NCBI RefSeq assembly: GCF_963921235.1
Contig: NC_086107.1
Span: 95,110,001-95,174,000 of the forward strand
Reading direction: 5' to 3'
Origin: Mobula hypostoma
Lineage: Eukaryota
DNA: 64,000 bases
Shown here: piece by piece, positions 9,793 to 49,479 of the stretch
How positions within the stretch are numbered: the first letter of the stretch is position 1
Layout: the number at the start of each line of letters is the position of its first letter
Notes under the pieces: generated by a model
The model's input: only the letters and a program-made list of their open reading frames with translations
Database searches by the model: none
What the model was told of the DNA's origin: nothing
Position numbers and translations under genes: made by a program

Positions 9793-12440
9793 CTATAACC
9801 ATATAACAATTACAGCACGGAAACAGGCCATCTCGGCCCCTCTATTCCATGCCAAACTCTTACTCTCACCTAGTCCCACCGACCTGCACTCAGCCCATAA
9901 CCCTCCGTTCCTTTCCTGTCCATATATCTATCCAATTTAACTTTAAATGACAACATCGAACCTGTCTCAACCACTTCTGCTGGAAGCTCATTCCATGCAG
10001 CTACCACCCTCTGAGTAAAGAAGTTCCCCCTCATGTTACCCCTAAACTTTTGCCCTTTAACTCTCAACTCATGTCCTCTTGTTTGAATCTCCCCCACTCT
10101 CAATGGAAAAAGCCTATCCACATCAACTCTATCTATCCCCCTCATAATTTTAAATACCTCTATCAAGTCCCCCCTCAACCCTTCTACGCTCCAAAGAATA
10201 AAGACCCAACTTGTTCAACCTTTCTCTGTAACTTAGGTGATGAAACCCAGGCAACATTCTAGTAAATCTTCTCTGTACTCTCTCAATTTTGTTGACATCT
10301 TTCCTATAATTTGGTGACCAGAACTGTACACAATACTCCAAATTTGGCCTCACCGATGCCTTGTACAATTTCAACCCAACTCCTATACTCAATGCTGTGA
10401 TTTATAAAGGCCAGCATACCAAAAGCTTTCTTCACCACCCTATCCACATGAGATTCCACCTTCAGGGAACTATGCACCATTATTCCTAGATTCCTCTGCT
10501 CTACTGCATTCTTCAATGCCCGACCATTTACCCTGTATGTCCTATTTTGATTAGTCCTACCAAAATGTAGCACCTCACATTTATCAGCATTAAAGTCCAT
10601 CTGCCATCTTTCAGCCCACTCTTCTAAGTGGTCTAAATCTCTCTGCAAGCTCTGAAGACCTACTTCATTATCCACAACTCCACCTATCTTAGTATCATCT
10701 GCATACTTACTAATCCAATTGACCACCCCATCATCCAGATCATTTATACGTGTAATATATATATGATGGATGCTGCTTTCCCGCAACAGCATGTGGGAGG
10801 ACTTGGAATGTGTGGGAGGGTTTCACCTGCAAATTTGCTGATCCAGTTTATCATATTATCATCCAGATTATTAATATAAATGACAAACAACACTCCTAGC
10901 ACCGATCCCTGCGAAACACCATGAATCACTGACCTCCAGCTAGAATAAGTGCCTTCGACCACTACTCTCTGTCTTCTGTGGGTAAGCCAGTTCTGAATCC
11001 AAATGGCCAATTCCCCATGGATCCCATACTTCTTAATCTTCTGGATGTGCCTACCATGAGGGACCTTATTAAACACCTTACTAAAAGCCATATAGACAAC
11101 ATCCACAGCAATACCTTCATCAATCGCCCTTGTCACCTTTTCAGAAAACTCAATCAAGTTAGTAAGACATTTCTTGCCCGCACAAAGCCATGCTGGTATT
11201 CACTGATTGGGCTATGTTTTTCCAAATGCTGGTAAATCCTGTCCCTAAGAATTCTGTCTGGTAATTTCCTTACCACCAGTGTGAGACTCACTGGTCTATA
11301 GTTTCCAGGATTATCCCTGGTTCCCTTCTTCAGTAATTGACCATCTGCTGCCACTCGAGCTAAGGCAGTGTTGAATCCAGTTACTATTTCATGCTAAATG
11401 CCCAGTGACGGAAGCTCCTGACCAGCCTCTCATGTAGGACTTTGGCAAAGGCCTTGCTAAAGTCCATGCAGACAACATCTACTGCCTTTCCTTCATAAAT
11501 TTTCCTGGTAACCTCCTCGAAAAGCATTAAGATTGGTTAGATATGACCTACCACACATAAATCCATGTTGACTATCCCTAATCAGGCCTCGTCTATCCAA
11601 ATACTTGTATATCCCATCCCTTACAATACTTTCCATGACTGGTGAAGGGTCTCGGCCGAAAACAATGACTTTTTACTCTTTTTCCATAGATGCTGCCTGG
11701 CCTGCTGATTTCCTCCAGCATTTTGTATGTGTTGCTTAAATTTTCAACATATGCAGATTTTCTCTTGTTTGTGTCCCAATTTAAAATCTCAACCAGAAGA
11801 CCAGTCCTATCCTTCTCCATAATTATCTTGAAACTAATGGAATTATGATCACTAGATCCAAAGTGTTCCCTTAGAAACATTTCTGCCATCTATCCTGTCT
11901 CATTCCCTAATAGGAGATCCAGTATTGCGTTCTCTCCAGCTGGGACCTCTACATATTGACAAACTCTATCCCTTTCAGCATTTTTACATTATGGGAGTTT
12001 GAGTCAATATGTCTAAAGTTAAAATCACCTACTATCACAACTTTGTTTCTTGCAACAGTATGCAATCTCTCCATAGATTAACTCTTCTAAATCCTGCGGA
12101 ATTTTGGATTGTCTGTATTATAATACCATTAACGAGTTCATCCTTTTCTTATTCCTCAGTTCCATCTCAGTGAATGAGCCCTCCTGTGTGTCTTGTCTGA
12201 GAACCTCCATGACATTTTCCCTGACTAGTAATGCCACCGCACCATCACTAATACCTCCTGCTCTATCATGTCTACAGCAACAGATCTCGGAACACTGAGC
12301 TGCCAGCCCTGCCTCTCCTGCAACCAAGTCTTTAATGGGTACATTATCTTAATTACATGTGCTGATCCAGGCTCTAAGCTGATCCGCCTTACCTACAATA
12401 CTCCTTGCATTGAAATGTACACAGTTCAGAATATTACTTC
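9793..12440 (-). mobile_element. Nested CR1 LINE fragments (RT and APE pieces)
   Basis: ORFs with [35 protein letters not shown]; short repeat tail near 9795. Confidence 0.8.
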
Positions 12441-19324: not shown

Positions 19325-22170
19325 CACTGGAGGAACTCAGCAGGTCAGGCAGCATCTATGGAGAGGAGTAAACAGTTGGCGTTTCTGGGTAAGACCCTAA
19401 ATCAGAACTGACAACAGATCCCAACATCTCCAGTTCCAATGATCTGGATGCTTCCAATCCACCGATTATGCATCCTCTAGCTCCGGCTGCATCCCCAACC
19501 TTGGCCACCTTCACCTCCAGGCCAAGACCATTCTCAGTGCTACTGGGTCCCTTGACTTCCCTTCCCTCAGCAGTACCTCCCACCAACCCTGAGTCTCTCA
19601 GGCTCCCCTGACACCGCTTCATTTCTCACACAATCTTCCTCATCCTATCTTTACTGAACACCCCAATCCTTCCTTCTCCACTGACGCCTCAAACTCTCTT
19701 CTCCCCCCTCATCCCAGCTGTAATCCCTGCCTTGTCTTTATCATCTCTCTGACCTTCCCCTCTTTGAGGTGGAATGTTCTGTCCTCAGCAAAAGCCTTAC
19801 CTTTGTCCCCCTGCATCCGCACCTCAGTAAGTTCAGCACCTACCAAGATGCTGAGCTCTTCTTTCATTGCCTCCTTCACCAAGCCCACTTTGGCAAGGTT
19901 TCCCCACCCTACACTAATGACTCTCACCCTTTCTCCTGTCTCCACCCCTCCTCTTCTGGCGGACGCCATTCTGGATCTTTTCATTTCCAATTGCTAACAT
20001 GACATCAAAAGGAGGAAAAGAGTGAGAATAAAGCTGTCCTTTTCTGATTGGTTGCCAGTGACTAGTGGTGTTCCACAGGAGTTGGTGTTGAGCTGCTTCT
20101 TTTCATATATATCAATAGTTTAGATGATGGAATTGATGATGTTGTGGCCAAGTTTGCAGACAATATGATGATGGGTGGAGGGGCAGGTATTGTTGAGGAA
20201 GCAGGGACTCTGCAAAAGGATAGACAAATTAGGAGAATGAGCAAAGAAGTGGCAGATGGAAAACAGTGTGGGGAAATGTATCGCCATGCCCTTTGGTAGA
20301 GGGATAAAAGTATAGTCTATTTTCTAAACAGGGAGAAAATTCAAAAATCAGGTGCAAAAGGTCTCGAGAGTCCTTGTGCGGGATTCCCTAAAGGTTAACT
20401 CACAGGTTGAGTCAGTGGTAAGGAAGGCAAATGCAACATTAGCATTCATTTCGAGAGGATTACAATACAAGAGCAAGGTCAGACCGCAGAGTATTGTGAG
20501 CAGTTTTGGGCCTCTTATCTAAGAAAAGATGTGTTGGCATTGGAGAAGGTCCAGAGGAGGTTCACGAGAATGACTCTAGGAACTCTGGGTTATTGTATGA
20601 GGAGCATTTGATGGTTCTGAGCCTGTACTCACTGGAGTTTAGAAGAGTGAAGAGGGAACTCATTGTAACCTATTGAATATTGAAAGGTGGATGCAGAAAG
20701 GATGTACTGGCTTTTGAGGCGATGCAGAGGAGATTCACCAGGTTGATTCCAGAGATGAGCGGGTCAGACTAAGAGGAGACTTTGAGTTGCCTGGGAGTGT
20801 ACTCGTTGGAATTCAGAAGGATGAGAGGAGATCTTATAAAAATTATGAAAGGAATATATAAGATAGAGGCAGGAAAGTTGTTTCCACTGGTAGGTGAGAC
20901 TAGAACTAGGGGAGAGCCTCAAGATTTGGGGGGATTCTAGAGTGGTGAATTTGTGGAATTCTCTGTCCAATGAAGCTGTGGAGGCTGCCTCAGTAAATAT
21001 ATTTAAGACAAGGCTGGATGGATTTTTGCATAGTAGGGGAATAAGGGTTATGGGGAAAAGGCAGGTAGGTGGAGGTGAGTCGATGGCCAGATCAGCCATG
21101 ACCTTATTGAATGGCGGAGCAGGCTTGACAGGCCAGATAGCCTACTCCTGCTCCTATTTCTTATGTTCTTGTGAAAGGATGTTTCCTATAGGGGTTGGGG
21201 GGGAGGCATCTAAGACCGAGTACGCAGCCTCAGAATAGAGGGATGTCCATTTAGATCAGAGATGAGGGGCATTTCTTTAGCCAGAGGGTGGTGAATCTCT
21301 GGAATTCATTGGCGTAGACGACTGTGGAGGCCAAGTCATTCAGTCTACTTAAAACAGTGGTTGATGGTTTTTTTCCATTAGTCAGGGTGTCAGAGGTTAT
21401 GGGTGAAGGTAGGAAATGAGGTTGAAAGGGATAATAAATCAGCCATGATGGAATGGTGGAGCAGACTTGATGAGCCGAATGGCTTAATTCTGCTCCTGTG
21501 TCTTATGGTCTTGATCAGCATTCCTCTCTCCTATTTCAGTGTGCCTCTGAACACATTGCCCTTCACTCTCTCTACACCAATCCCATCCTCACCATCACAC
21601 TTGCAGAAAAATGGTTGCTGTTGTAGTCTTATAGACTGGCCTCTACCTTGCTGAGGCCAGGCAGCATGTCTCAAACAACTCCTATTACTTACCTCTTGCA
21701 CAGCACCCCACTCAGGAACTTCAGGTCATTGTCCCCTGCACAGTCACTAATCTTATCATCTCTGGGATCTCTCCACTGCCACCAACCTCATAGTCCCTTA
21801 TCCTGCTCTGCTCAGTTCTACCTCCTACCTAAGATCCACAAACCTCACTGACTGGATAGGCCCATTGTTTCTGCCTGTTCCTGCGCACATTCCTTACTCC
21901 ATTTTATCCCTCTTGGTTCAATCCCGTCCCACCCATTTCTACAACTTCTCACATCTCTCAGTCTCTTCAACATCTTTTCATGCCTTGGTCCTGATTTTCA
22001 CCATTGGTATTATCACTTCTATCCCCCATCAAGGAGACCTTAAATCTCTCTGCTTCTTTATCAACAACTTTCTTGAAAAGCTGTCCTGATGAATGGTCTT
22101 GGCTTGCAATATTGACCTTTCACAGATGTTGTCTGAGCTGCTGAGTTCCTCCAGCATCTGCTGAACCTCT
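19325..22170 (+). mobile_element. Fragmented Penelope-like element interrupted by CR1 pieces (~20010-21515)
   Basis: Inverted pLTR piece at 19325-19400. ORF remnants SVLSKSLTFVPLHPHL and FYLLPKIHKP..RPIVS. Terminal pLTR with a degenerate CTGATGA hammerhead core at ~22081-22116. Confidence 0.6.
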
Positions 22171-24599
22171 TCTGGTTCACAAGGTGTGTGGTGTGTTAGA
22201 CTTCATTAGTTGTGGGATTGAGATCAAAAGCTGCAAGATAACGTTGTAGCTCTAGAAAACCCTGGTTAGACCACACTTGGGAGTATTGTGTTCAGTTCTG
22301 ATCATCTCATTATAGGAAGCATGTGGAATCTTTAAGAGAGGGTGCAGAAGAGATTTACCAGGATGCTGCCTGGATTAGAAAGCATGTATTTTGAGGTAAG
22401 GTTATAGAGCTAGGGCTTTTCTGTTTGGAGTGAAGTTCTCGAGAGGTGACTTGATAGAGGTGTACGAGATGGTAACAGGCGTAAATGGAATTGACAGCCA
22501 AATACTTTTTTTTTCCCCCTGGGTGGAAGTGACTAACACAAGGGGGTGTAACTTTAAGGTGATTAGGAAGGAAGTATGGGGGACATGTTAGAGGTAAGTC
22601 TTTTACAAAGCATGGTTAGTGCATGGAAAGCACTGCCAGGGGTGGTGGACATTTAAGAGACTCAGACATATAAATGAAAGAAAAATGGAGGGCTATGCAG
22701 GAGAAAGGGGTTAAGTTGACCTTGGAGTACGTTAATGGGACAGAACAACATCATGAGCTGTAAGGCCTCTAATGTGCTCTACCGTTCTCTGTTTTTCATA
22801 ACGAGGTAGATTGTGAGATCAAAAGGCCATCTTAAAATACTAGGGAACTATTTAATTGCCTTATAACAGCAGGGGAGATGCTGTTGTTGAGACTGGTGGG
22901 ATGTGTTTTCAGGCTTTTCTATCTTCTGCCTGACAGAAGGAGGGAGAAGAGAGAATGTCTGGGGTGGGTGGGGTCTTTGATTGTGCTAGCTGCCTTACTG
23001 AGGCAATGAGAAGAGTAGACAGAGTCCATGGAGGGGAAGCTGGATTCTGTGGTGTGCTGAGTTGTGTCCACAACTCTCTGCAGTGTCTTGTGGTTGCAGA
23101 CAGAACAATTGCCATTCCAAGCCATGATGTGTCCGAATAGGATGGTGCGTCAATAAAAATTACAAAATTAACACAATCAGAGCAAACCATAAAGTCTGTT
23201 CAAATGCAAAGTGATCACAGTGTTACTGTACTGAGGCAGTGATTAGGGTTGTGCCGGCTGCTTCAAGAACTGGCTGGTTGAAGGGAAGTCATTATTGTTG
23301 AACCTGGTGGTGTGGGACTTCAGGCTTCTGTACATCTTGCCTAATAGTAGCTGTGAGAAGCTGCCATGGTCTGGATAGCAGGGATCTTTAATGATGGATG
23401 TTGCCTTCTTGAAGTATTGCTTCCTGTAGGTACCACTGATGGCTGGGAGGAATGTGCCTGTGATGTATTGGGTTGACTCCACTACTCTCTGCGGCTTCTT
23501 ATGTTCCTGCGCATTTGAATTGCTGTACTAGACTGATGCAACCAGTCAGGATACCTTGCTAAGATGCATCTGTAGAAATTTGAACTTAGAGTGTTTGGTG
23601 ACAAACTTGAGTTTCTTTAACCTCCCAACAAAGTAAAGAGGCCTTCCTCATCTGGATCAGGTTCAACATCACTAGCATATGCAGTGAAATTTGTTCTTTT
23701 GCAGCAGCAGTACATTGTAATACACAAAAAAAGTAATCTATATTACAATAAGAAATATATTTTAAGATGATAAATTAAATAGTTGAAAAGGGGAACAAAA
23801 GAAGAAAACGAAAGTGAGGTATTGTACATGGGTTCATTGTCCATTCGGAAATCTGATGGTGGAGGGGAAGAAGCTGTTCCTTAAACATTAACCATAAGAC
23901 AGGAACTGAATCAGGCAGTATTTCCCCTCGGGGAAACTATGCTGACTTTGGCCTAGCAACATACACAAAATTGTGCAGGAACTCAGCAGGCCAGGCAGCA
24001 TCTATGGAAAAAGTACAATCGATGCTTTGGGCTGAAACCCCTTGGCAGGACCTTCAGCATTTTGTGTGTGTTGATTGGATTTTCAGCATCTGCAGACTTT
24101 CTCTTGTTTTTGACTTTGGCCTATTATATCGTGTGCCTCCAAGGACCCCAAAACCCCGTCCTTAATAGTGGACTACAACAAAGAATCTTCCCAGCCACTG
24201 AAGTCAGCCTAGTTAGCCTATAATTTCTCTTCTTTTCCCTCCCTCCCTTCTTAAAGAGTGGAGTGACATTTGTAATTTTGCAGTCATAGTGGAGGTAGGT
24301 CCAGAGGAGAAGTCAGGGGTAAGTTTATTACTCAGAGAGTGGTGAGCGCGTGGAATGGGCTGCTGGCGGCAGTGGTGCAGGCGGATACGATCGGGTCTTT
24401 TAAGAGACTCCTGGACAGGTACATGGATCTCAGAAAAATAGAGCGCTATGGGTAACCCTAGGTAATCTCTAAGGACAGGACATGTTTGAGACAGCTTTGT
24501 GGACTGAAGGGCCTGTATTGTGCTGTAGGTTTTCGATATTTCTATAGTGATTCCCAGTAACATTCTCGAATCTAATGACTCTTGAAAGATTATTACTAA

Positions 24600-30205: not shown

Positions 30206-30456
30206 AAGCAACACACATCAAAGTTGCTGGTGAACGCAGCCTCCTCCTGTCTTCTCCTATCATTTTGGATCTCCCCCTCCCCCTTCCACTTTCAAATCTC
30301 TTACTAACTCTTCCTTCAGTTAGTCCTGACGAAGGGTCTCGACCCGAAACATCAACTGTACCTCTTCCTAGAGATACTGCCTGGCCTGCTGCGTTCACCA
30401 GCAACTTTGATGTGTGTTGCTTGAATTTCCAGCGTCTGCAGAAGTCCTCGTGTTTG
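30206..30456 (+). mobile_element. Penelope-like pLTR with inverted 5' piece and degenerate hammerhead motif
   Basis: 30206-30240 is the reverse complement of ~30388-30422. AGTC-CTGACGA-stem-GAAA-CATC-AACT at 30322-30357. Confidence 0.7.
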
Positions 30457-31817
30457 CAAACTTTCCTCTTTTTGTTTTCATAACCAGGGTCTCAATATCT
30501 CTTTAAAAATAAGGTTCCCTACATCAGTTATCTTTACCTTTTATTCTGACGGACAAGTTTTCTTTTCTTTTTCAATCTTTTTATTCGTTTCATAAAAATA
30601 AACATAACATGGTAATGGTACAAAGTTATTGGGAATACATTGTTATAATTAGCATAAGTGATAATAAAACCAGTTGACACTTAAATGATAAAACTCCCAA
30701 TCATATAGGATACAAGTGAACAATATAAAACAAAGAAAAATATCTAAAAAAAATCATGAAAAAGGAAAAAAAAATTATAACCCCCCCCCCCAAAAAAAAC
30801 AGAACCAAACAGAATTAATCAACTAAACTAAAAAAAAAGACATGGGCTGTTTTGTAACATCGTAAAAAAAGAGAAAACCTTAGTGTCGACGACTCTGTTC
30901 CTCTCAACCAATATTACAAAGAAATAAAATAAGTTTTGAAAAGGTCAAATTACATCATATGAAAATGTTGAATAAATGGCCTCCAAGTCTTTTCGAATTT
31001 AATAGAGGGATCATAAACAACACTTCTATTTTTTTTCCAAAGTTAAACACAGCATAGTTTGAGAAAACCAATGAAATGTGGTAGGAGGATTAATCTCTTT
31101 CCAATTCAGCAAAATGGATCTTCTAGCCATTAAAGTAAGAAATGCAATCACCCGATGAACTGAAGAGGTTAAGTGATTTGATTCTATCATTGGTAACCCA
31201 AAAATAGCAGTAATTGGGTGAGGTTGTAAGTCTATATTCAGAACTATTGAAATAATATCAAAAATATCCAATATTGTTTCAACAAAGGACATGACCAAAA
31301 CATGTGAGCTAAAGAAGCTATCTTGGAATGACATCTATCACATATATGATTTATATAAGAGTAATAATGAGATAGTTTATCTTTGGACATGTGAGCCCTG
31401 TGCACTGCTTTAAACTGTATCAACCCATGTTTAGCACATATAGATGAATTTTTTCCCATTTTTCAATCGGTACAGTGATCTTAAGTTCTCTTTCCCAATC
31501 AGTTTTAATTTTATTAGATACATCAGGACATAAATTCATAATTATATTATAAATAATTGCTACAACACCTTTCTGAAAAAGATTTAAATCTAAATATTTT
31601 TCCAAAATATCCATTGGATATAAATGTGGAAAATTAGGAGAAACAGTAATTAAAAAGTTTCTAACCTGTAGATATCTAAAAAAAAAGTGAGATCTAGGCA
31701 AATTATATTTATTAGATGTAAACAACAGGAATTCTGCAGATGCTGGAAATTCAAGCAACATACATCAAAGTTGCTGGTGAACGCAGCAGGCCAGGCAGCA
31801 TCTATAGGAAGAGGCGC

Positions 31818-31853
31818 AGTCGACGTTTCAGGCCGAGACCCTTCGTCAGGACT
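31818..31853 (-). ncRNA. Minimal type I hammerhead ribozyme motif (mirror copy)
   Basis: Exact reverse complement of 31920-31955. Confidence 0.75.
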
Positions 31854-31919
31854 AACTGAAGGAAGAGTGAGTAAGGGATTTGAAAGCTTTCAAATCCCTT
31901 ACTCACTCTTCCTTCAGTT

Positions 31920-31955
31920 AGTCCTGACGAAGGGTCTCGGCCTGAAACGTCGACT
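31920..31955 (+). ncRNA. Minimal type I hammerhead ribozyme motif
   Basis: AGTC-CTGACGA-AGGGTCTCGGCCT-GAAA-CG-TC-GACT: helix I AGTC/GACT, conserved CUGANGA and GAAA cores, GUC cleavage triplet, self-complementary ACGT helix III. Confidence 0.75.
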
Positions 31956-34900
31956 GCGCCTCTTCCTATAGATGCTGCCTGGCCTGCTGCGTTCACCAGC
32001 AACTTTGATGTATGTTGCTTATATTTATTAGATGGTTGTTCGAAGGACATAAAACAATTATCCAAAAATAAATCACAAAATCATACTATACCTTTGATTT
32101 TCCTATCTAAATAAGATTGATCCATAGTGGAAGGATGGACAAGTTGTATACTCTCAAAATTACACTTCTGAAGGCCTCCCACTTGCCAAGTACAACTTGG
32201 CAAGAAAACAGCCTGACCCAATTCACACTTGCCAGATCTTCTCTGATAACATCAAAATTGGCCTTTGACCAATTTAGAATCTCAACCTGTGGACCAGACC
32301 TATCTTTTTTACATATTTACTTTGAAACTAATGGCATTGTGATCACGAGATACAAAGTGTTCCCCTTGCACAAACTTCTGTCACCTGCCCTGTCTCATTC
32401 CCGAATAAGAAATCAAGTATTGCGCACTCTCTTGTTGGGAATTCTGTGTACTGATTAAGGAAACTTTTATGAAAGCATTTGACAAACTCTATCCCATATA
32501 GTCCTTTTACAGTATGGGAGTCCCAGTCGATATGTGAAAAGTTAAAATCACCTTCTTTAACAACCTTGTGTTGTTTTGCGACAGTCTGCAATCTCTACAA
32601 ATTTGTTCCTTTAAATAGCTTGGTGATCTGTAATATAACCCCTTTAACATGGTCAGACCTTCTTATTTCTCAGTTCCACCTATAACACCTCACTGGATGA
32701 GTTCTCCAGTCTGTTCTGACTGAGCACTGCCGTGACGTTTTCCCTGACTGGTAACACCATTCCTCCTCCTTTAATGCCTCCTGCTCTGTTGCAACGGAAC
32801 CCTGGAACACTGAGCTGACAGTCCTGCCCCTCCTGCAACCAGCTCTCACTAAAGGCTACAATATTATACTTCCATGTGTTGATCCATGCCGAGTTCATCT
32901 GCCTTTCTGAAGGTACAATGATGCATTGAAATATACACAGCTCAGGACACTAGTCACACCGTGCTCAACTTTTTGATTCCTGACTTTGTCTGAGATCTTA
33001 ACCACATCTGTCTCCACAACCTCTCCACTAACTGTTCTGGCAACCTGGTTCCCATCCCCTGCAACTCTATGGGCTCTTTACACCCCACTGCTTTGAGAAA
33101 GCAGCCAGCTCAATCAAAGACCTGGATATTCTCTTTTCACCCCTCTCCCATTGTGCAGAAGATGCAAAAGTGTGAAAGCACATCCCACCAGGCTTCTACC
33201 CCAATGTTATCAGACTATTGAACCACCTTTAATACAATAAGATGGGGTCTTGATCTCACACTCCAGCTTGCTATGATCTTGCACCTGATTGCCTGCTTGC
33301 ACTTTATCTTTCTCATCTTATTCTGCATTCTTTTATTGTCTTATTTTGTTCTACCTCAATACATTGTGTAATGATTTGACCTGTATGAACAGTATACAAG
33401 ACAATCTTTTCACTGAGGCTTCTGTACTTTCTGCACAATTGTAGTAGTGAAAAGAGTGTAGCCTGGATGGTGGTTGCTGCTTTCTTATGGCATTTAGAGG
33501 GACATGCGCCAAATGGGACTAGTTCCGGAAGGGAACTGAGTCAGCATGGATGAGTTGGGCTGAACGGTCTGTATAAGCAAGGGGCACTGGGAATATGTTG
33601 TAAGAGGAGGCTTCCACAGGCCCCCTACCAACTGGGTAGGGATGTGAAGAGCAAAGGAGGTTTAAGCTGCTACCTCTCAAACTGCAAGGAGCAAGAAGGG
33701 CAATGGTGGCAATAAAGAGGTAGGATGTTGCCCTTGGGGAGTAGGGAGGGTGGTGAGATCCCAGCTCCTGTTTCACCACTCTCCATCTACCTATCTATCC
33801 AAGTTCTTCTTAAATGAGACTATTGTACCTGCCTCGTTCCATACACTCACTGCACTTTGGAAAAGTTGCTTCGCAGATCCCCTTTAAACATTTCCCTTCT
33901 CACCTTAAACCTGTGCCCTCTGTTTCTTGGGTCCCTAACCCTGGGAAAAATGACTACATTTATACTTTCTGTGCCTCTTGAGTTACTGGCCAGAGGATCA
34001 AGGCAGAGGATAATACTGCATACAAGAAGCAAAACAGTCTCAGCAAGTGACTAAAGCCATAGGTTTGAAGACAACACTGAAATAGGTGGTGCTTTCATCT
34101 GTGAAGATGGTTATCATGGTTTACAGGGAGAACATGATTAGCTGGGTAAGTGGGCTGAGGAATGGCAAATGGAGTTTAATTTGAATAAGTGCAAAGTTTT
34201 GGTAAGAAATATGACTTTCACAGTGAACGGAGGAACTAAGGATTACAGGTACACAATTCCCTGAGAGTGGTGTCACAGATAGACAGAGTGACGTAGAAGG
34301 TGTTTGGCCATCTGGCCTCCATTAGTCAGGTCACCGGGTACAGAAGTTAGGACGTTATGTTGAAGTGGTGCAAGATATTGATGAGGGCACAGTCAGAGTA
34401 ACGTGTTCTCTTTTGGTCACCCTGCTGCAGGAAAGATGCTGTTAAGCTGGAAAAAGTACAGAGAATTATAGGGATGTTGCCAGGACTCAAGAGACTAAGT
34501 TATGTACCATGGAGAGTATTCTAACTGGCTGCATCACAGTCTGGTATGGTGGGGCTACTGCACAGGATCAAAGTAAGTTGCAGAGTGGTAAAATTAGCCC
34601 CATCATGGGTACTAGCCTCCATAGTATCCAAGACATCTTCAAGGAGCGATGCTTCAAAAAGGCAGTGTCCATCATTGAGCACCCTACCACCCAGGACATG
34701 ACTTCTTCTCATTGTTACCGCTGGGAAGGAGGTATATGAACCTGAGGGGACACGTTCAGCAACTCAGGACAGCTTCTTCCCCTCTGCCATCTGATTTCTG
34801 AATGGGCATTGAAACCACAAACCTATGTCACTATTTTTTAAAATTTTGTTTTTTTTTTGCACTTTTTTTTAACAACTTAATACACACATATATACTTACT

Positions 34901-49141: not shown

Positions 49142-49164
49142 TAACTTGCAGGTTGAGTCAGTAA

Positions 49165-49479
49165 ACACAAAGTAATCTGCAGATGCTGGGATCAAAGCAA
49201 CACTCACAACACGCTGGAGGAACTCACCAGGTTGAGCAGCATCAGTGGAAATGATGAGTCAACTTTTTGGGCCGGAACCCTTTGTCAGGACTGTAGAGGA
49301 AAGGGGCAGAGGCCCTATAAAGAAGGTGGGGGGAGGGTGGGAAGGAGAAGGCTGGTAAGTTCCAGGTGAAGGAAAACCAGCAAGGGAAAAGATAAAGAGG
49401 TGGGGAGGGGAAGCAGGGAGGTGATAGGCAGGAAAGGTGAAGAAGGAATAGAGGAAAACACAATGGGTAGTAAACACAA
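49165..49479 (-). mobile_element. Penelope-like pLTR fragment with degenerate hammerhead motif
   Basis: TGAGTCAGTAA duplicated at 49154-49164 and 49480-49490. Minus-strand CAGTCCTGACAAAGGGTTCCGGCCCAAAAAGTTGAC. Confidence 0.65.

What the first reader, a model, noticed from the sequence alone, without database searches (positions are those of the whole stretch)
31705..32034. Perfect 268-bp spacerless palindrome carrying a hammerhead ribozyme on each strand
31753-32020 is an exact inverted repeat (134-bp arms, no loop, centre GAAAG|CTTTC) flanked by a 14-bp TSD and inserted into an L1 fragment. Each arm holds a minimal type I hammerhead (AGTC-CUGACGA-stem II-GAAA-CG-UC-GACU) with a palindromic ACGT helix III, the form known from Penelope-like element pLTRs and thought to act as a dimer. 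The unit has no coding sequence, so it may be a tiny non-autonomous ribozyme-bearing retroelement. It would give a long dsRNA hairpin from either strand and a cruciform-prone site in DNA. Identical arms imply recent formation or ongoing arm conversion.
Basis: partly seen in the sequence, partly recalled or inferred. Interest (0 to 1): 0.78.

Follow-up and report, generated by a model that had tools for sequence, protein, structure and literature searches.

The report
Head-to-head stub of Penelope-like retroelement
The perfect palindrome is real, but it is a dead by-product left when a very abundant Penelope-like jumping gene inserted two tiny copies of its own tail end head to head, an arrangement already described for this class of elements.

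Summary
31753-32020 is an exact 268-bp spacerless palindrome. It lies in a 300-bp insertion (31719-32018) flanked by a 16-bp, not 14-bp, target-site duplication. All 11 paralogous host-repeat copies examined show the empty site.

Each arm is the last 134 nt of a young Penelope-like element (PLE). Its 19-mer has 27,218 hits in the 3.48-Gb genome. Longer copies carry RT plus GIY-YIG. The hammerhead-like motif is this family's own. My descriptor finds it 54 times in 283 kb against 0 in shuffles. Rfam finds nothing even at E<=10.

The 34 nt at 31719-31752 are the PLE "tail". Head-to-head copies abut at least 10 of 29 sampled copies. The same AAAG|CTTT centre recurs at 22 loci. Each has its own 12-17-bp duplication and exactly one tail, and variants are shared by both arms. 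So these are independent one-event by-products, not a self-propagating mini-element.

This architecture is already published (PMC8557442, PMC3846280, PMC11167929).

Interest is low to moderate.

The parts
31703..31718 (.). Left copy of the 16-bp target-site duplication TTATATTTATTAGATG
   Evidence: Direct repeat D3. It is single-copy in 11 of 11 paralogous host-repeat copies.
31719..31752 (-). 34-nt PLE 'tail' read on the minus strand (GAATTTCCAGCATCTGCAGAATTCCTGTTGTTTA). It is the native continuation of the element past its usual 3' end and equals codons 3-14 of the element ORF.
   Evidence: The same stretch follows the 3' end in L002, L003, L018, L021, L024, L027 and L033. It is the native sequence in the full-length copy in L047, whose ORF starts MLLEFPASAEFLLF. 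It is present on exactly one arm in 22 of 22 palindromic loci.
31753..31886 (-). Left arm: the 3' terminal 134 nt of the PLE, sense on the minus strand
   Evidence: Exact reverse complement of the right arm. Matches the element reference.
31887..32020 (+). Right arm: the 3' terminal 134 nt of the PLE, sense on the plus strand, ending at the usual tail-less 3' end ...GATGTATGTTGCTT(A)
   Evidence: 40 scored genomic hits at 99-100% identity. The same sharp 3' end is seen in 30 of 30 loci.
31916..31959 (+). Minimal type I hammerhead-like motif. Helix I 5' strand 31919-31923, CUGACGA 31924-31930, helix II region 31931-31943, GAAA 31944-31947, CGUC 31948-31951 (predicted cut after 31951), helix I 3' strand 31952-31956.
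   Evidence: No Rfam hit.
31814..31857 (-). Mirror copy of the hammerhead-like motif on the minus strand (predicted cut after the complement of 31822)
   Evidence: Follows from the exact palindrome. The descriptor hits both strands.
32012..32014 (+). ATG that opens the element ORF in full-length copies. Its mirror on the minus strand lies at 31759-31761 and runs on through the tail.
   Evidence: The stop-to-stop frame of L047 2961-3728(-) begins CMLLEFPASAEFLLF. The window frame 31420-31764(-) begins the same way.
32019..32034 (.). Right copy of the 16-bp target-site duplication. Its first 2-3 nt are ambiguous with the element end.
31247..31462 (-). Host repeat: C-terminal cysteine-rich part of a LINE ORF2 (L1-like), interrupted further on by the insertion
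   Evidence: zf-RVT 26.4 bits, E 1.2e-05, gathering score 27.5. 2331 first-look candidates in the genome, with scored copies 85-91% alike.

Best explanation
The 300-bp insert is one dead-on-arrival insertion of an endonuclease-bearing Penelope-like element (PLE). It consists of two extremely 5'-truncated copies of the element's 3' end (134 nt each) joined head to head, with the 34-nt PLE tail on one outer end only. A 16-bp duplication made by staggered GIY-YIG cuts flanks the whole unit. The hammerhead-like motifs are the element's own motif, which sits about 60 nt upstream of the ORF start. They are here because they lie within the last 134 nt, not because the unit uses them.

Shown: the identity of the arms, the tail, the duplication, the recurrence, and the fact that both arms of a locus come from one template.

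Inferred (about 50% odds): both target strands primed reverse transcription on the same RNA. One start was at the usual site (tail-less end). The other was at the second start site 34 nt further on (tail end). The two cDNAs then joined at the element's self-complementary AGCT.

The alternative route (about 35% odds) is snap-back self-priming of a single cDNA.

The locus has no coding capacity. If transcribed, it should fold into a 132-bp RNA hairpin.
For: The 140-nt arm has 797 first-look candidates; 40 were scored, all 99-100% identical. A 19-mer from the arm has 27,218 exact hits.

In 29 other loci the arm is the 3' end of longer copies, with scattered 5' truncation points and one sharp 3' end. 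Copies of 1.7-3.5 kb encode RT plus GIY-YIG. PF01541 scores 23.6 and 23.1 bits against a gathering score of 22.6; RVT_1 is weak at 16.6-17.5 bits. One copy, L047, has an upstream partial tandem copy, which is a pseudo-LTR.

At least 10 of the 29 loci have an abutting inverted copy. Two further head-to-head pairs lie in this same window.

Exactly one tail is present in 22 of 22 loci sharing this centre and in 6 of 6 other inverted pairs with both ends in view. Only 1 of 19 simple copies has a tail.

All 22 loci have unique duplications of 12-17 bp. In 13 of 13 scorable loci both arms carry the same GTA/GTG variant, and at least 7 haplotypes are shared between the arms of a locus.

Literature:
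- PMC8557442 (passages read): an inverted 5'-truncated copy abutting the element and a 30-40-bp tail at one end are hallmarks of PLE insertions.
- PMC3846280 (passages): the tail sits on one of the inverted pseudo-LTRs and encodes ORF codons; palindromes occur at inverted junctions.
- PMC11167929 (main text read): a PLE protein cleaves and extends both strands, and the tail is the stretch between two RT start sites.
- PMC4209133 (passages and sections 5 and 11): minimal hammerheads lie in PLE pseudo-LTRs, and pairs occur on opposite strands 100-700 bp apart.
Against: No read-level confirmation of this locus was possible. The four runs laid were short contigs swamped by the repeat, and no listed piece bridges the centre.

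The RT match to Pfam is below threshold, and I did not place the RT in a PLE phylogeny.

The hammerhead motif matches no Rfam model. Its helix II is weak: 3 bp, or 4 bp with two G.U pairs, and 10.1-11.1 is not G-C.

Against the favoured route: the tail-less arm ends early in some loci (28, 38 and 80 nt), which is easier to explain by snap-back copying or later loss. In vitro, no strand difference in start site was reported (PMC11167929).

The uniform unit length (291-308 bp in 17 of 22) and the shared centre could still suggest a discrete short template.

The hot-spot test was confounded by subfamilies. There were 106 hits at the centre site, which counts the G variant only, against 63 and 460 at two control sites.
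Confidence: 0.88

Rival explanations
1. Same identity (a PLE by-product), but made by snap-back. A single cDNA primed at the tail start site ran 168 nt. It then folded back at the self-complementary AGCT and copied itself, and the second arm was joined to the other side of the break.
For: Arms are identical within a locus, and haplotypes are shared by both arms. The outer end of the tail-less arm varies: 28, 38, 80 and 122-135 nt. The native AGCT lies at the centre. Self-priming was proposed for palindromic inverted junctions of PLEs (PMC3846280, discussion passage).
Against: It does not explain why the second arm stops at the usual tail-less 3' end (122-135 nt in 18 of the 22 loci) instead of copying the tail. 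It also does not explain why fold-back should go with the tail start site, which only 1 of 19 simple copies uses.
Confidence: 0.35
2. The roughly 300-bp palindrome is itself a small non-autonomous retroelement. It is transcribed and copied in trans by the PLE enzyme, and it carries a ribozyme on each strand.
For: 22 loci share the same centre, each with its own duplication, and the unit is 291-308 bp in 17 of 22. PLE enzymes can mobilise pseudo-LTR-flanked sequence in trans (PMC3846280, passage). Animal retrozymes are argued to derive from PLE pseudo-LTRs (bioRxiv 10.64898/2026.07.22.740005, abstract only).
Against: At least 7 haplotypes are each shared by both arms, so a master lineage would need as many symmetric masters. 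No unit has a tail on both ends (0 of 22), whereas a full copy of a palindromic RNA should often carry both. There is a continuum of other head-to-head junctions in the same family. 22 loci against more than 27,000 family copies is the scale of a by-product.
Confidence: 0.05
3. Assembly fold-back artefact or chimeric read.
For: Perfect palindromes are a known failure mode of assemblies, and I could not bridge the centre with independent reads.
Against: The flanks are collinear and not inverted, with a direct 16-bp duplication and an empty site in 11 of 11 paralogues. The two ends differ by the tail. 21 other loci on other contigs have the same build with their own duplications.
Confidence: 0.02

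Closest known systems
Canonical endonuclease-bearing Penelope-like element insertion unit: pseudo-LTR, adjacent inverted 5'-truncated copy, 30-40-bp tail at one end (Craig et al. 2021, PMC8557442; Arkhipova et al. 2013, PMC3846280)
   Same: Inverted copy abutting head to head, a tail of 34 nt on one end only, the tail encoding the first ORF codons, a short duplication, heavy 5' truncation, a palindromic tetranucleotide at the junction, and a hammerhead motif near the ORF start.
   Different: Both copies are cut down to 134 nt at the same nucleotide. Nothing but two tail ends remains, and the result is a perfect spacerless palindrome. The same centre recurs at 22 loci. I did not find such a solo class described in the passages I read.
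PAc (Poseidon of Anolis carolinensis) in vitro system (Frangieh et al. 2024, PMC11167929)
   Same: Two RT start sites a few tens of nt apart just inside the ORF, with the tail being the stretch between them. AC-rich cDNA starts (here CAAGCAAC and CAAACAAC, read from the sequence). Cleavage and extension of both strands would give head-to-head cDNAs. The hammerhead lies next to the ORF start.
   Different: Here the start sites lie at about +8 and +42 of the ORF rather than +111 to +118. The genomic copies show strict coupling (exactly one tail per inverted unit), which that paper did not report. Nothing was tested biochemically here.
Minimal hammerheads of PLE pseudo-LTRs (Cervera and de la Pena 2014, PMC4209133)
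   Same: CUGANGA...GAAA...UH core, a short helix I (5 bp), an extra nucleotide after A9, and a palindromic 15.1-16.1 stretch (ACGU) that implies a dimer. Pairs on opposite strands were noted there.
   Different: Helix II is short (3-4 bp against 6-8), and 10.1-11.1 is G.U or A-U rather than G-C. No activity data exist.
Animal non-LTR retrozymes (Cervera and de la Pena 2020, PMC7229834, abstract in search listing; Li et al. 2026 preprint, abstract)
   Same: Short non-coding units with type I hammerheads related to PLE pseudo-LTRs.
   Different: Retrozymes are direct tandem repeats, so one transcript holds two sense ribozymes and can release a circle. Here the copies are inverted, so one transcript holds one sense and one antisense copy and folds into a duplex.
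L1 5' inversions by twin priming (recalled: Ostertag and Kazazian 2001; not read here)
   Same: A second priming event on the other target strand during target-primed reverse transcription gives an inverted segment within one duplication.
   Different: In twin priming the two segments are different, adjacent parts of the RNA. Here both arms are the same 3' terminal part, with both 3' ends facing outward.

Membership tests
Penelope-like element (endonuclease-bearing) | Single ORF with reverse transcriptase followed by a C-terminal GIY-YIG endonuclease | tested here: met
   Tested in longer copies of the same repeat, not in the window unit. GIY-YIG PF01541 scores 23.6 and 23.1 bits against a gathering score of 22.6. 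The RT part has a YxDD-like motif but scores only 16.6-17.5 bits on RVT_1, below the gathering score of 29.6.
Penelope-like element (endonuclease-bearing) | Partial tandem copy forming a pseudo-LTR | tested here: met
   In the reverse complement of L047, 4556-5318 repeats the last roughly 730 nt plus the tail of the 3.5-kb unit that follows.
Penelope-like element (endonuclease-bearing) | Frequent 5' truncation with a fixed 3' end | tested here: met
   29 loci have scattered 5' ends, and 30 of 30 share the end ...GTTGCTTA. There are 93 first-look candidates for a stretch about 1.7 kb upstream of the 3' end (the 5' end of a 1.72-kb copy), against 797 for the 3' arm.
Penelope-like element (endonuclease-bearing) | Adjacent inverted 5'-truncated copy, head to head | tested here: met
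   Seen in the window unit, in at least 10 of 29 sampled loci, and in two more pairs in the window.
Penelope-like element (endonuclease-bearing) | [quoted passage not shown] | tested here: met
   34 nt at 31719-31752. Exactly one tail in 22 of 22 loci with this centre.
Penelope-like element (endonuclease-bearing) | RT groups with PLE/telomerase RTs in a phylogeny | not tested
Hammerhead ribozyme, minimal type I (PLE type) | Conserved core C3-A9, G12-A14, U16.1-H17 | tested here: met
   CUGACGA, GAAA and GUC are at the right spacing. The descriptor gave 54 hits against 0 in shuffles.
Hammerhead ribozyme, minimal type I (PLE type) | Helix II closed by G10.1-C11.1, usually 6-8 bp in PLE motifs | tested here: not met
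   Only 3 bp (A-U, G-C, G-C), or 4 bp with two G.U pairs after a bulged A.
Hammerhead ribozyme, minimal type I (PLE type) | Helix I of 4-5 bp and a palindromic helix III stretch | tested here: met
   5 pairs in helix I. ACGU is self-complementary.
Hammerhead ribozyme, minimal type I (PLE type) | Match to a curated covariance model | tested here: not met
   No Rfam hammerhead hit at E<=1, at gathering score or at E<=10 on 71 nt. Such minimal motifs needed a special descriptor in PMC4209133.
Hammerhead ribozyme, minimal type I (PLE type) | Self-cleavage after H17 | not testable with these tools
   This needs an in vitro assay. Published PLE motifs cleave poorly alone (PMC4209133) or only with protein (PMC11167929).
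Animal non-LTR retrozyme | Direct tandem repeats, each with a sense hammerhead, able to release a circular RNA | tested here: not met
   The two copies are inverted, not tandem. The transcript folds into one long hairpin.
Foldback or MITE-type DNA transposon | Terminal inverted repeats of a DNA transposon, with a duplication of fixed length | tested here: not met
   The arms are the 3' end of a retroelement. Duplications vary from 12 to 17 bp, and the two ends differ by the tail.

The most novel reading that the evidence does not exclude
The class of roughly 300-bp solo palindromes (22 loci) is an in vivo footprint of coupled two-strand target-primed reverse transcription by a dimeric PLE particle. 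Both nicked target strands prime on one RNA. One uses the first start site and the other uses the second start site 34 nt on, which would explain why every unit has exactly one tail. The two like-sense cDNAs are then joined where the element offers a self-complementary AGCT. If so, these stubs record steps of PLE integration that are still unresolved. The many perfect hairpin loci they create could also feed small-RNA silencing of the family's own ORF start and leader.
Probability: 0.35. Interest if true: 0.45.

Novelty: new member of a known kind. Interest (0 to 1): 0.27.

Why it matters
For genome annotation, this shows that short hammerhead-bearing palindromes in a PLE-rich genome should be filed as truncated head-to-head PLE insertions, not as a new mobile element or a ribozyme gene.

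For PLE biology, three regularities are cheap, testable constraints on the unresolved choice between self-priming and two-strand priming:
- Exactly one tail per inverted unit (22 of 22, plus 6 of 6 other pairs).
- The same variant in both arms (13 of 13 scorable loci).
- A recurrent junction at AGCT.

Perfect 134-bp inverted repeats are also potential fragile sites and sources of hairpin RNA. No expression data could be obtained here.

Tried and rejected
- **Rfam scans.** Three scans gave only sub-threshold miRNA-hairpin hits caused by the long stem, and no hammerhead.
- **Public runs.** The run search listed no holder on record as RNA. Laying four runs (X1, X2, X7, X15) gave only short contigs at enormous repeat depth. 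No listed piece bridges the centre, so the reads neither confirm nor refute the palindrome. One contig of X7 joins 31714 to 32035, skipping 320 nt. This is 4 nt off a clean empty site, has only 24 nt on one side, and may come from a paralogous LINE copy, so I did not use it.
- **Hot-spot test.** The centre site gave 106 hits, 63 at a control 11-12 nt on and 460 at a control 25 nt on. The controls are inflated by other subfamilies that share the hammerhead half but differ upstream, and the first pattern counts only the G variant. I therefore claim only a rough excess of palindromic junctions at AGCT: about 22-30 loci, against 3 opposite-strand pairs at GGG|CCC.
- **Hammerhead cleavage setting the arm length.** Rejected: the predicted cut (after 31951) lies 65 nt inside the arm.
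- **A discrete RNA 5' end or transcription start at the centre.** Only weak support: L020 and about 59 simple copies start there.
- **Two independent insertions side by side.** Rejected: there is a single duplication and the truncation points are identical.
- The first reference built failed through a scripting error. It was replaced by natural stretches.
- **Earlier notes.** Look-ups by place and by sequence gave nothing.
Full report
**Observation.** The window holds an exact inverted repeat with 134-nt arms (31753-31886 and 31887-32020), no spacer, and centre GAAAG|CTTTC. The repeat finder extends it to 140 nt at 99%, and my own scan gives an exact arm of 134. The flanking direct repeat is 16 bp (TTATATTTATTAGATG, 31703-31718 and 32019-32034), not 14. 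I searched the genome with the left flank and compared 11 paralogous copies of the host repeat. In all 11 the left and right flanks overlap by about 15 nt with nothing between them. So 31719-32018 (300 bp) is a true insertion with a target-site duplication. The host repeat is LINE-like: a minus-strand frame at 31247-31462 hits zf-RVT at 26.4 bits, just under its gathering score of 27.5.

**What the arms are.** The window lies in a 3.48-Gb genome of 200 contigs.
- The 140-nt arm has 797 first-look candidates. The 40 that were scored are 99-100% identical.
- A 19-mer from the arm has 27,218 exact hits, so this is a very large, young family.
- In 29 other loci the arm is the 3' end of longer copies. 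Their 5' ends are scattered, and all share one sharp 3' end...GATGTATGTTGCTTA.
- Copies of 1.7 kb encode the C-terminal half of a reverse transcriptase and a GIY-YIG endonuclease.
- A 3.5-kb unit in L047 has a 255-aa N-terminal frame, a 735-aa RT frame and a 173-aa GIY-YIG frame. These frames are broken relative to one another. An upstream partial tandem copy of about 730 nt forms a pseudo-LTR.
- GIY-YIG passes Pfam's gathering score twice (23.6 and 23.1 bits against 22.6). RVT_1 is only a weak hit (16.6-17.5 bits against 29.6).

RT plus a C-terminal GIY-YIG, pseudo-LTRs and heavy 5' truncation define endonuclease-bearing Penelope-like elements (PLEs; PMC8557442, PMC11167929).

Positions 31719-31752, between the left duplication and the palindrome, read on the minus strand as GAATTTCCAGCATCTGCAGAATTCCTGTTGTTTA. 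The same stretch follows the 3' end in seven other loci. It is the native continuation of the element. In L047 the ORF opens ATG TTG CTT GAA TTT CCA... (MLLEFPASAEFLLF). The ATG therefore sits a few nt before the usual 3' end (32012-32014 in the right arm), and the 34 nt are codons 3-14.

This is the PLE "tail":
- It is a 30-40-bp extension often present at only one end of an insertion (PMC8557442, passages).
- It was described in rotifer Penelope as lying on one of the inverted pseudo-LTRs and as extending the ORF codons (PMC3846280, passages).
- In vitro it was explained as the stretch between two adjacent internal RT start sites (PMC11167929, main text).

**Head-to-head copies are normal for this family.**
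- At least 10 of the 29 sampled loci have an inverted 5'-truncated copy abutting the direct copy: L002, L003, L006, L010, L016/L033, L021, L024, L025, L027 and L030.
- Some junctions are nearly symmetric: L027 (9-nt offset plus 6 nt of filler), L025 (46 nt) and L024 (75 nt). Others differ by hundreds of nt.
- The window itself holds two more pairs. One is 30206-30240 (inverted, tail-less, 35 nt) against 30241-30457 (direct, with tail). The other is an older pair near 24055.
- Where both outer ends are in view, exactly one carries the tail: 6 of 6 pairs, plus the window unit. Only 1 of 19 simple copies (L018) has a tail.

**The same palindrome recurs.**
- A 32-nt pattern of the centre, allowing up to 2 mismatches, matches 22 loci on many contigs. 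The reversed-pattern control matches none.
- I examined all 22 loci.
- Each has its own 12-17-bp duplication and its own flanks.
- The unit is 291-308 bp in 17 of 22.
- Exactly one arm carries the tail in 22 of 22.
- The tail-less arm ends at 122-135 nt in most loci, but at 28, 38 and 80 nt in three.
- Both arms carry the same GTA or GTG variant in 13 of 13 scorable loci.
- At least seven haplotypes occur (none, 92T, 125G, 92T+125G, 95A, 82C+125G, 71A+82C+125G). Each is shared by both arms of its locus, and several are seen in ordinary copies.
- Arm-to-arm mismatches range from 0 to 4.

Both arms of a unit were therefore made from one template at each event, and different events used different source variants. 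That argues against a single palindromic master that copies itself. It also means identical arms need no ongoing conversion.

**Mechanism.** Shown: one insertion event (a single duplication), two copies of the same 3' end with the ends facing out, one tail, one template per event, and a junction at the element's native AGCT. The element reads ...CTCCAGCTTTC..., and the centre is AAAG|CTTT.

My preferred route is inferred, at about 50% odds:
1. The PLE particle nicks both strands 16 bp apart.
2. Both 3' ends prime reverse transcription on the same RNA.
3. One primes at the usual site (tail-less end, cDNA start CAAGCAAC). The other primes at the next site 34 nt downstream (tail end, cDNA start CAAACAAC).
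4. The two like-sense cDNAs are joined where their ends can pair, at a self-complementary tetranucleotide.

This fits the in vitro finding that a PLE protein cleaves and extends both strands and uses two start sites (PMC11167929). It also explains the strict one-tail rule, which independent choice of start site cannot (at most half of units would have exactly one tail).

The rival route, at about 35% odds, is snap-back self-priming of a single cDNA, proposed for palindromic PLE junctions in PMC3846280. It explains the identical arms and the few short second arms. It does not explain why the second arm usually stops at the normal 3' end, or why fold-back goes with the tail start site.

My attempt to show that the centre is a hot spot was only partly successful. 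The centre site gave 106 hits with non-native upstream sequence (G variant only). About 47 of these are palindromic arms. Two control sites gave 63 and 460 hits, but the controls are inflated by other subfamilies. Three opposite-strand pairs at the first control show that blunt symmetric junctions also form elsewhere (GGG|CCC). The first 100 rows include one more palindromic junction at another centre, GGGA|TCCC.

**The hammerhead.** The motif is CUGACGA 31924-31930, GAAA 31944-31947 and CGUC 31948-31951. It has a 5-bp helix I, a palindromic ACGU and an extra A after A9. An explicit descriptor finds it 54 times in 283,210 held bases, always in this family, and never in five shuffles.

The weak points are these:
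- Helix II is only 3-4 bp without a G10.1-C11.1 pair.
- No Rfam model reports it, even at E<=10.
- Published PLE motifs cleave poorly alone or need the element protein, and cleavage was not needed for insertion in vitro (PMC4209133, PMC11167929).

In this locus a transcript from either strand is predicted to form a 132-bp duplex (-284.3 kcal/mol, z -34.6). It would carry one sense and one antisense copy, so neither a monomer fold nor the proposed dimer is available within the unit. The arm length is not set by the ribozyme, because the cut site lies 65 nt inside the arm.

**Artefact question.** I could not confirm the palindrome with reads. The listed runs are short contigs, the depth is dominated by the repeat family, and no listed piece bridges the centre. 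A fold-back artefact is nevertheless very unlikely, for four reasons:
- The flanks are collinear.
- The insert is bounded by a direct duplication.
- The two ends differ by the tail.
- 21 other loci have the same build.

**Comparison and verdict.** This is the published PLE insertion architecture in its most reduced form: two tail-end stubs and nothing else. It is not a retrozyme (no direct tandem), not a DNA foldback element, and not an L1-type twin-priming inversion (both arms are the same region). I tested the reading independently here.

I rate it a new member of a known kind, with low to moderate interest. What is worth keeping is the set of regularities that bear on the unresolved PLE integration mechanism: exactly one tail per unit, one template per event, and the recurrent AGCT junction.

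Noticed in passing
window 30206-30457: A second head-to-head PLE pair 1.3 kb upstream. A 35-nt inverted, tail-less 3' end (30206-30240) abuts a direct copy of about 216 nt that carries the tail. The 35-nt arms are 100% complementary, and the direct copy is about 86% identical to the L047 unit.
   Followed up: partly
window 23952-24109: An older, diverged head-to-head PLE pair: a minus-strand 3' end of about 97 nt against a plus-strand 3' end plus tail of about 50 nt. Identity to the L047 unit is 75-86%.
   Followed up: partly
window 11644-11770, 19333-19957, 21546-22059, 49163-49292: Further diverged PLE fragments (68-76% identity to the L047 unit), including pieces of the coding region. The window is dense in PLE debris.
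   Followed up: no
genome-wide (G000): The 19-mer CCTTACTCACTCTTCCTTC from the arm has 27,218 exact hits. In the first 100 rows, the base just before CTTTC is G or A in roughly equal shares, which suggests two large subfamilies. The hammerhead 5' half also occurs behind several other recurrent upstream 4-mers (GGAC, TAAC, TTGC...), suggesting further subfamilies that keep the motif.
   Followed up: partly
L020 (G000:C66:7209857 region): A simple, non-inverted copy starts at exactly the same nucleotide as the window's arms. About 59 such copies appear. This could mark a preferred cDNA or RNA end at CCA|GCTTTC.
   Followed up: partly
window 32343-32949, minus strand: Frames with endonuclease-like motifs of another LINE (for example ...EGDFNFSHIDWDSH... 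and ...FSESWLQEGQD...), just downstream of the host repeat.
   Followed up: no
L032 6604-6700: An isolated 97-nt inverted copy of the PLE 3' end lies about 600 bp upstream of the 5' end of a 1.72-kb direct copy. It is unclear whether it belongs to the same insertion.
   Followed up: no
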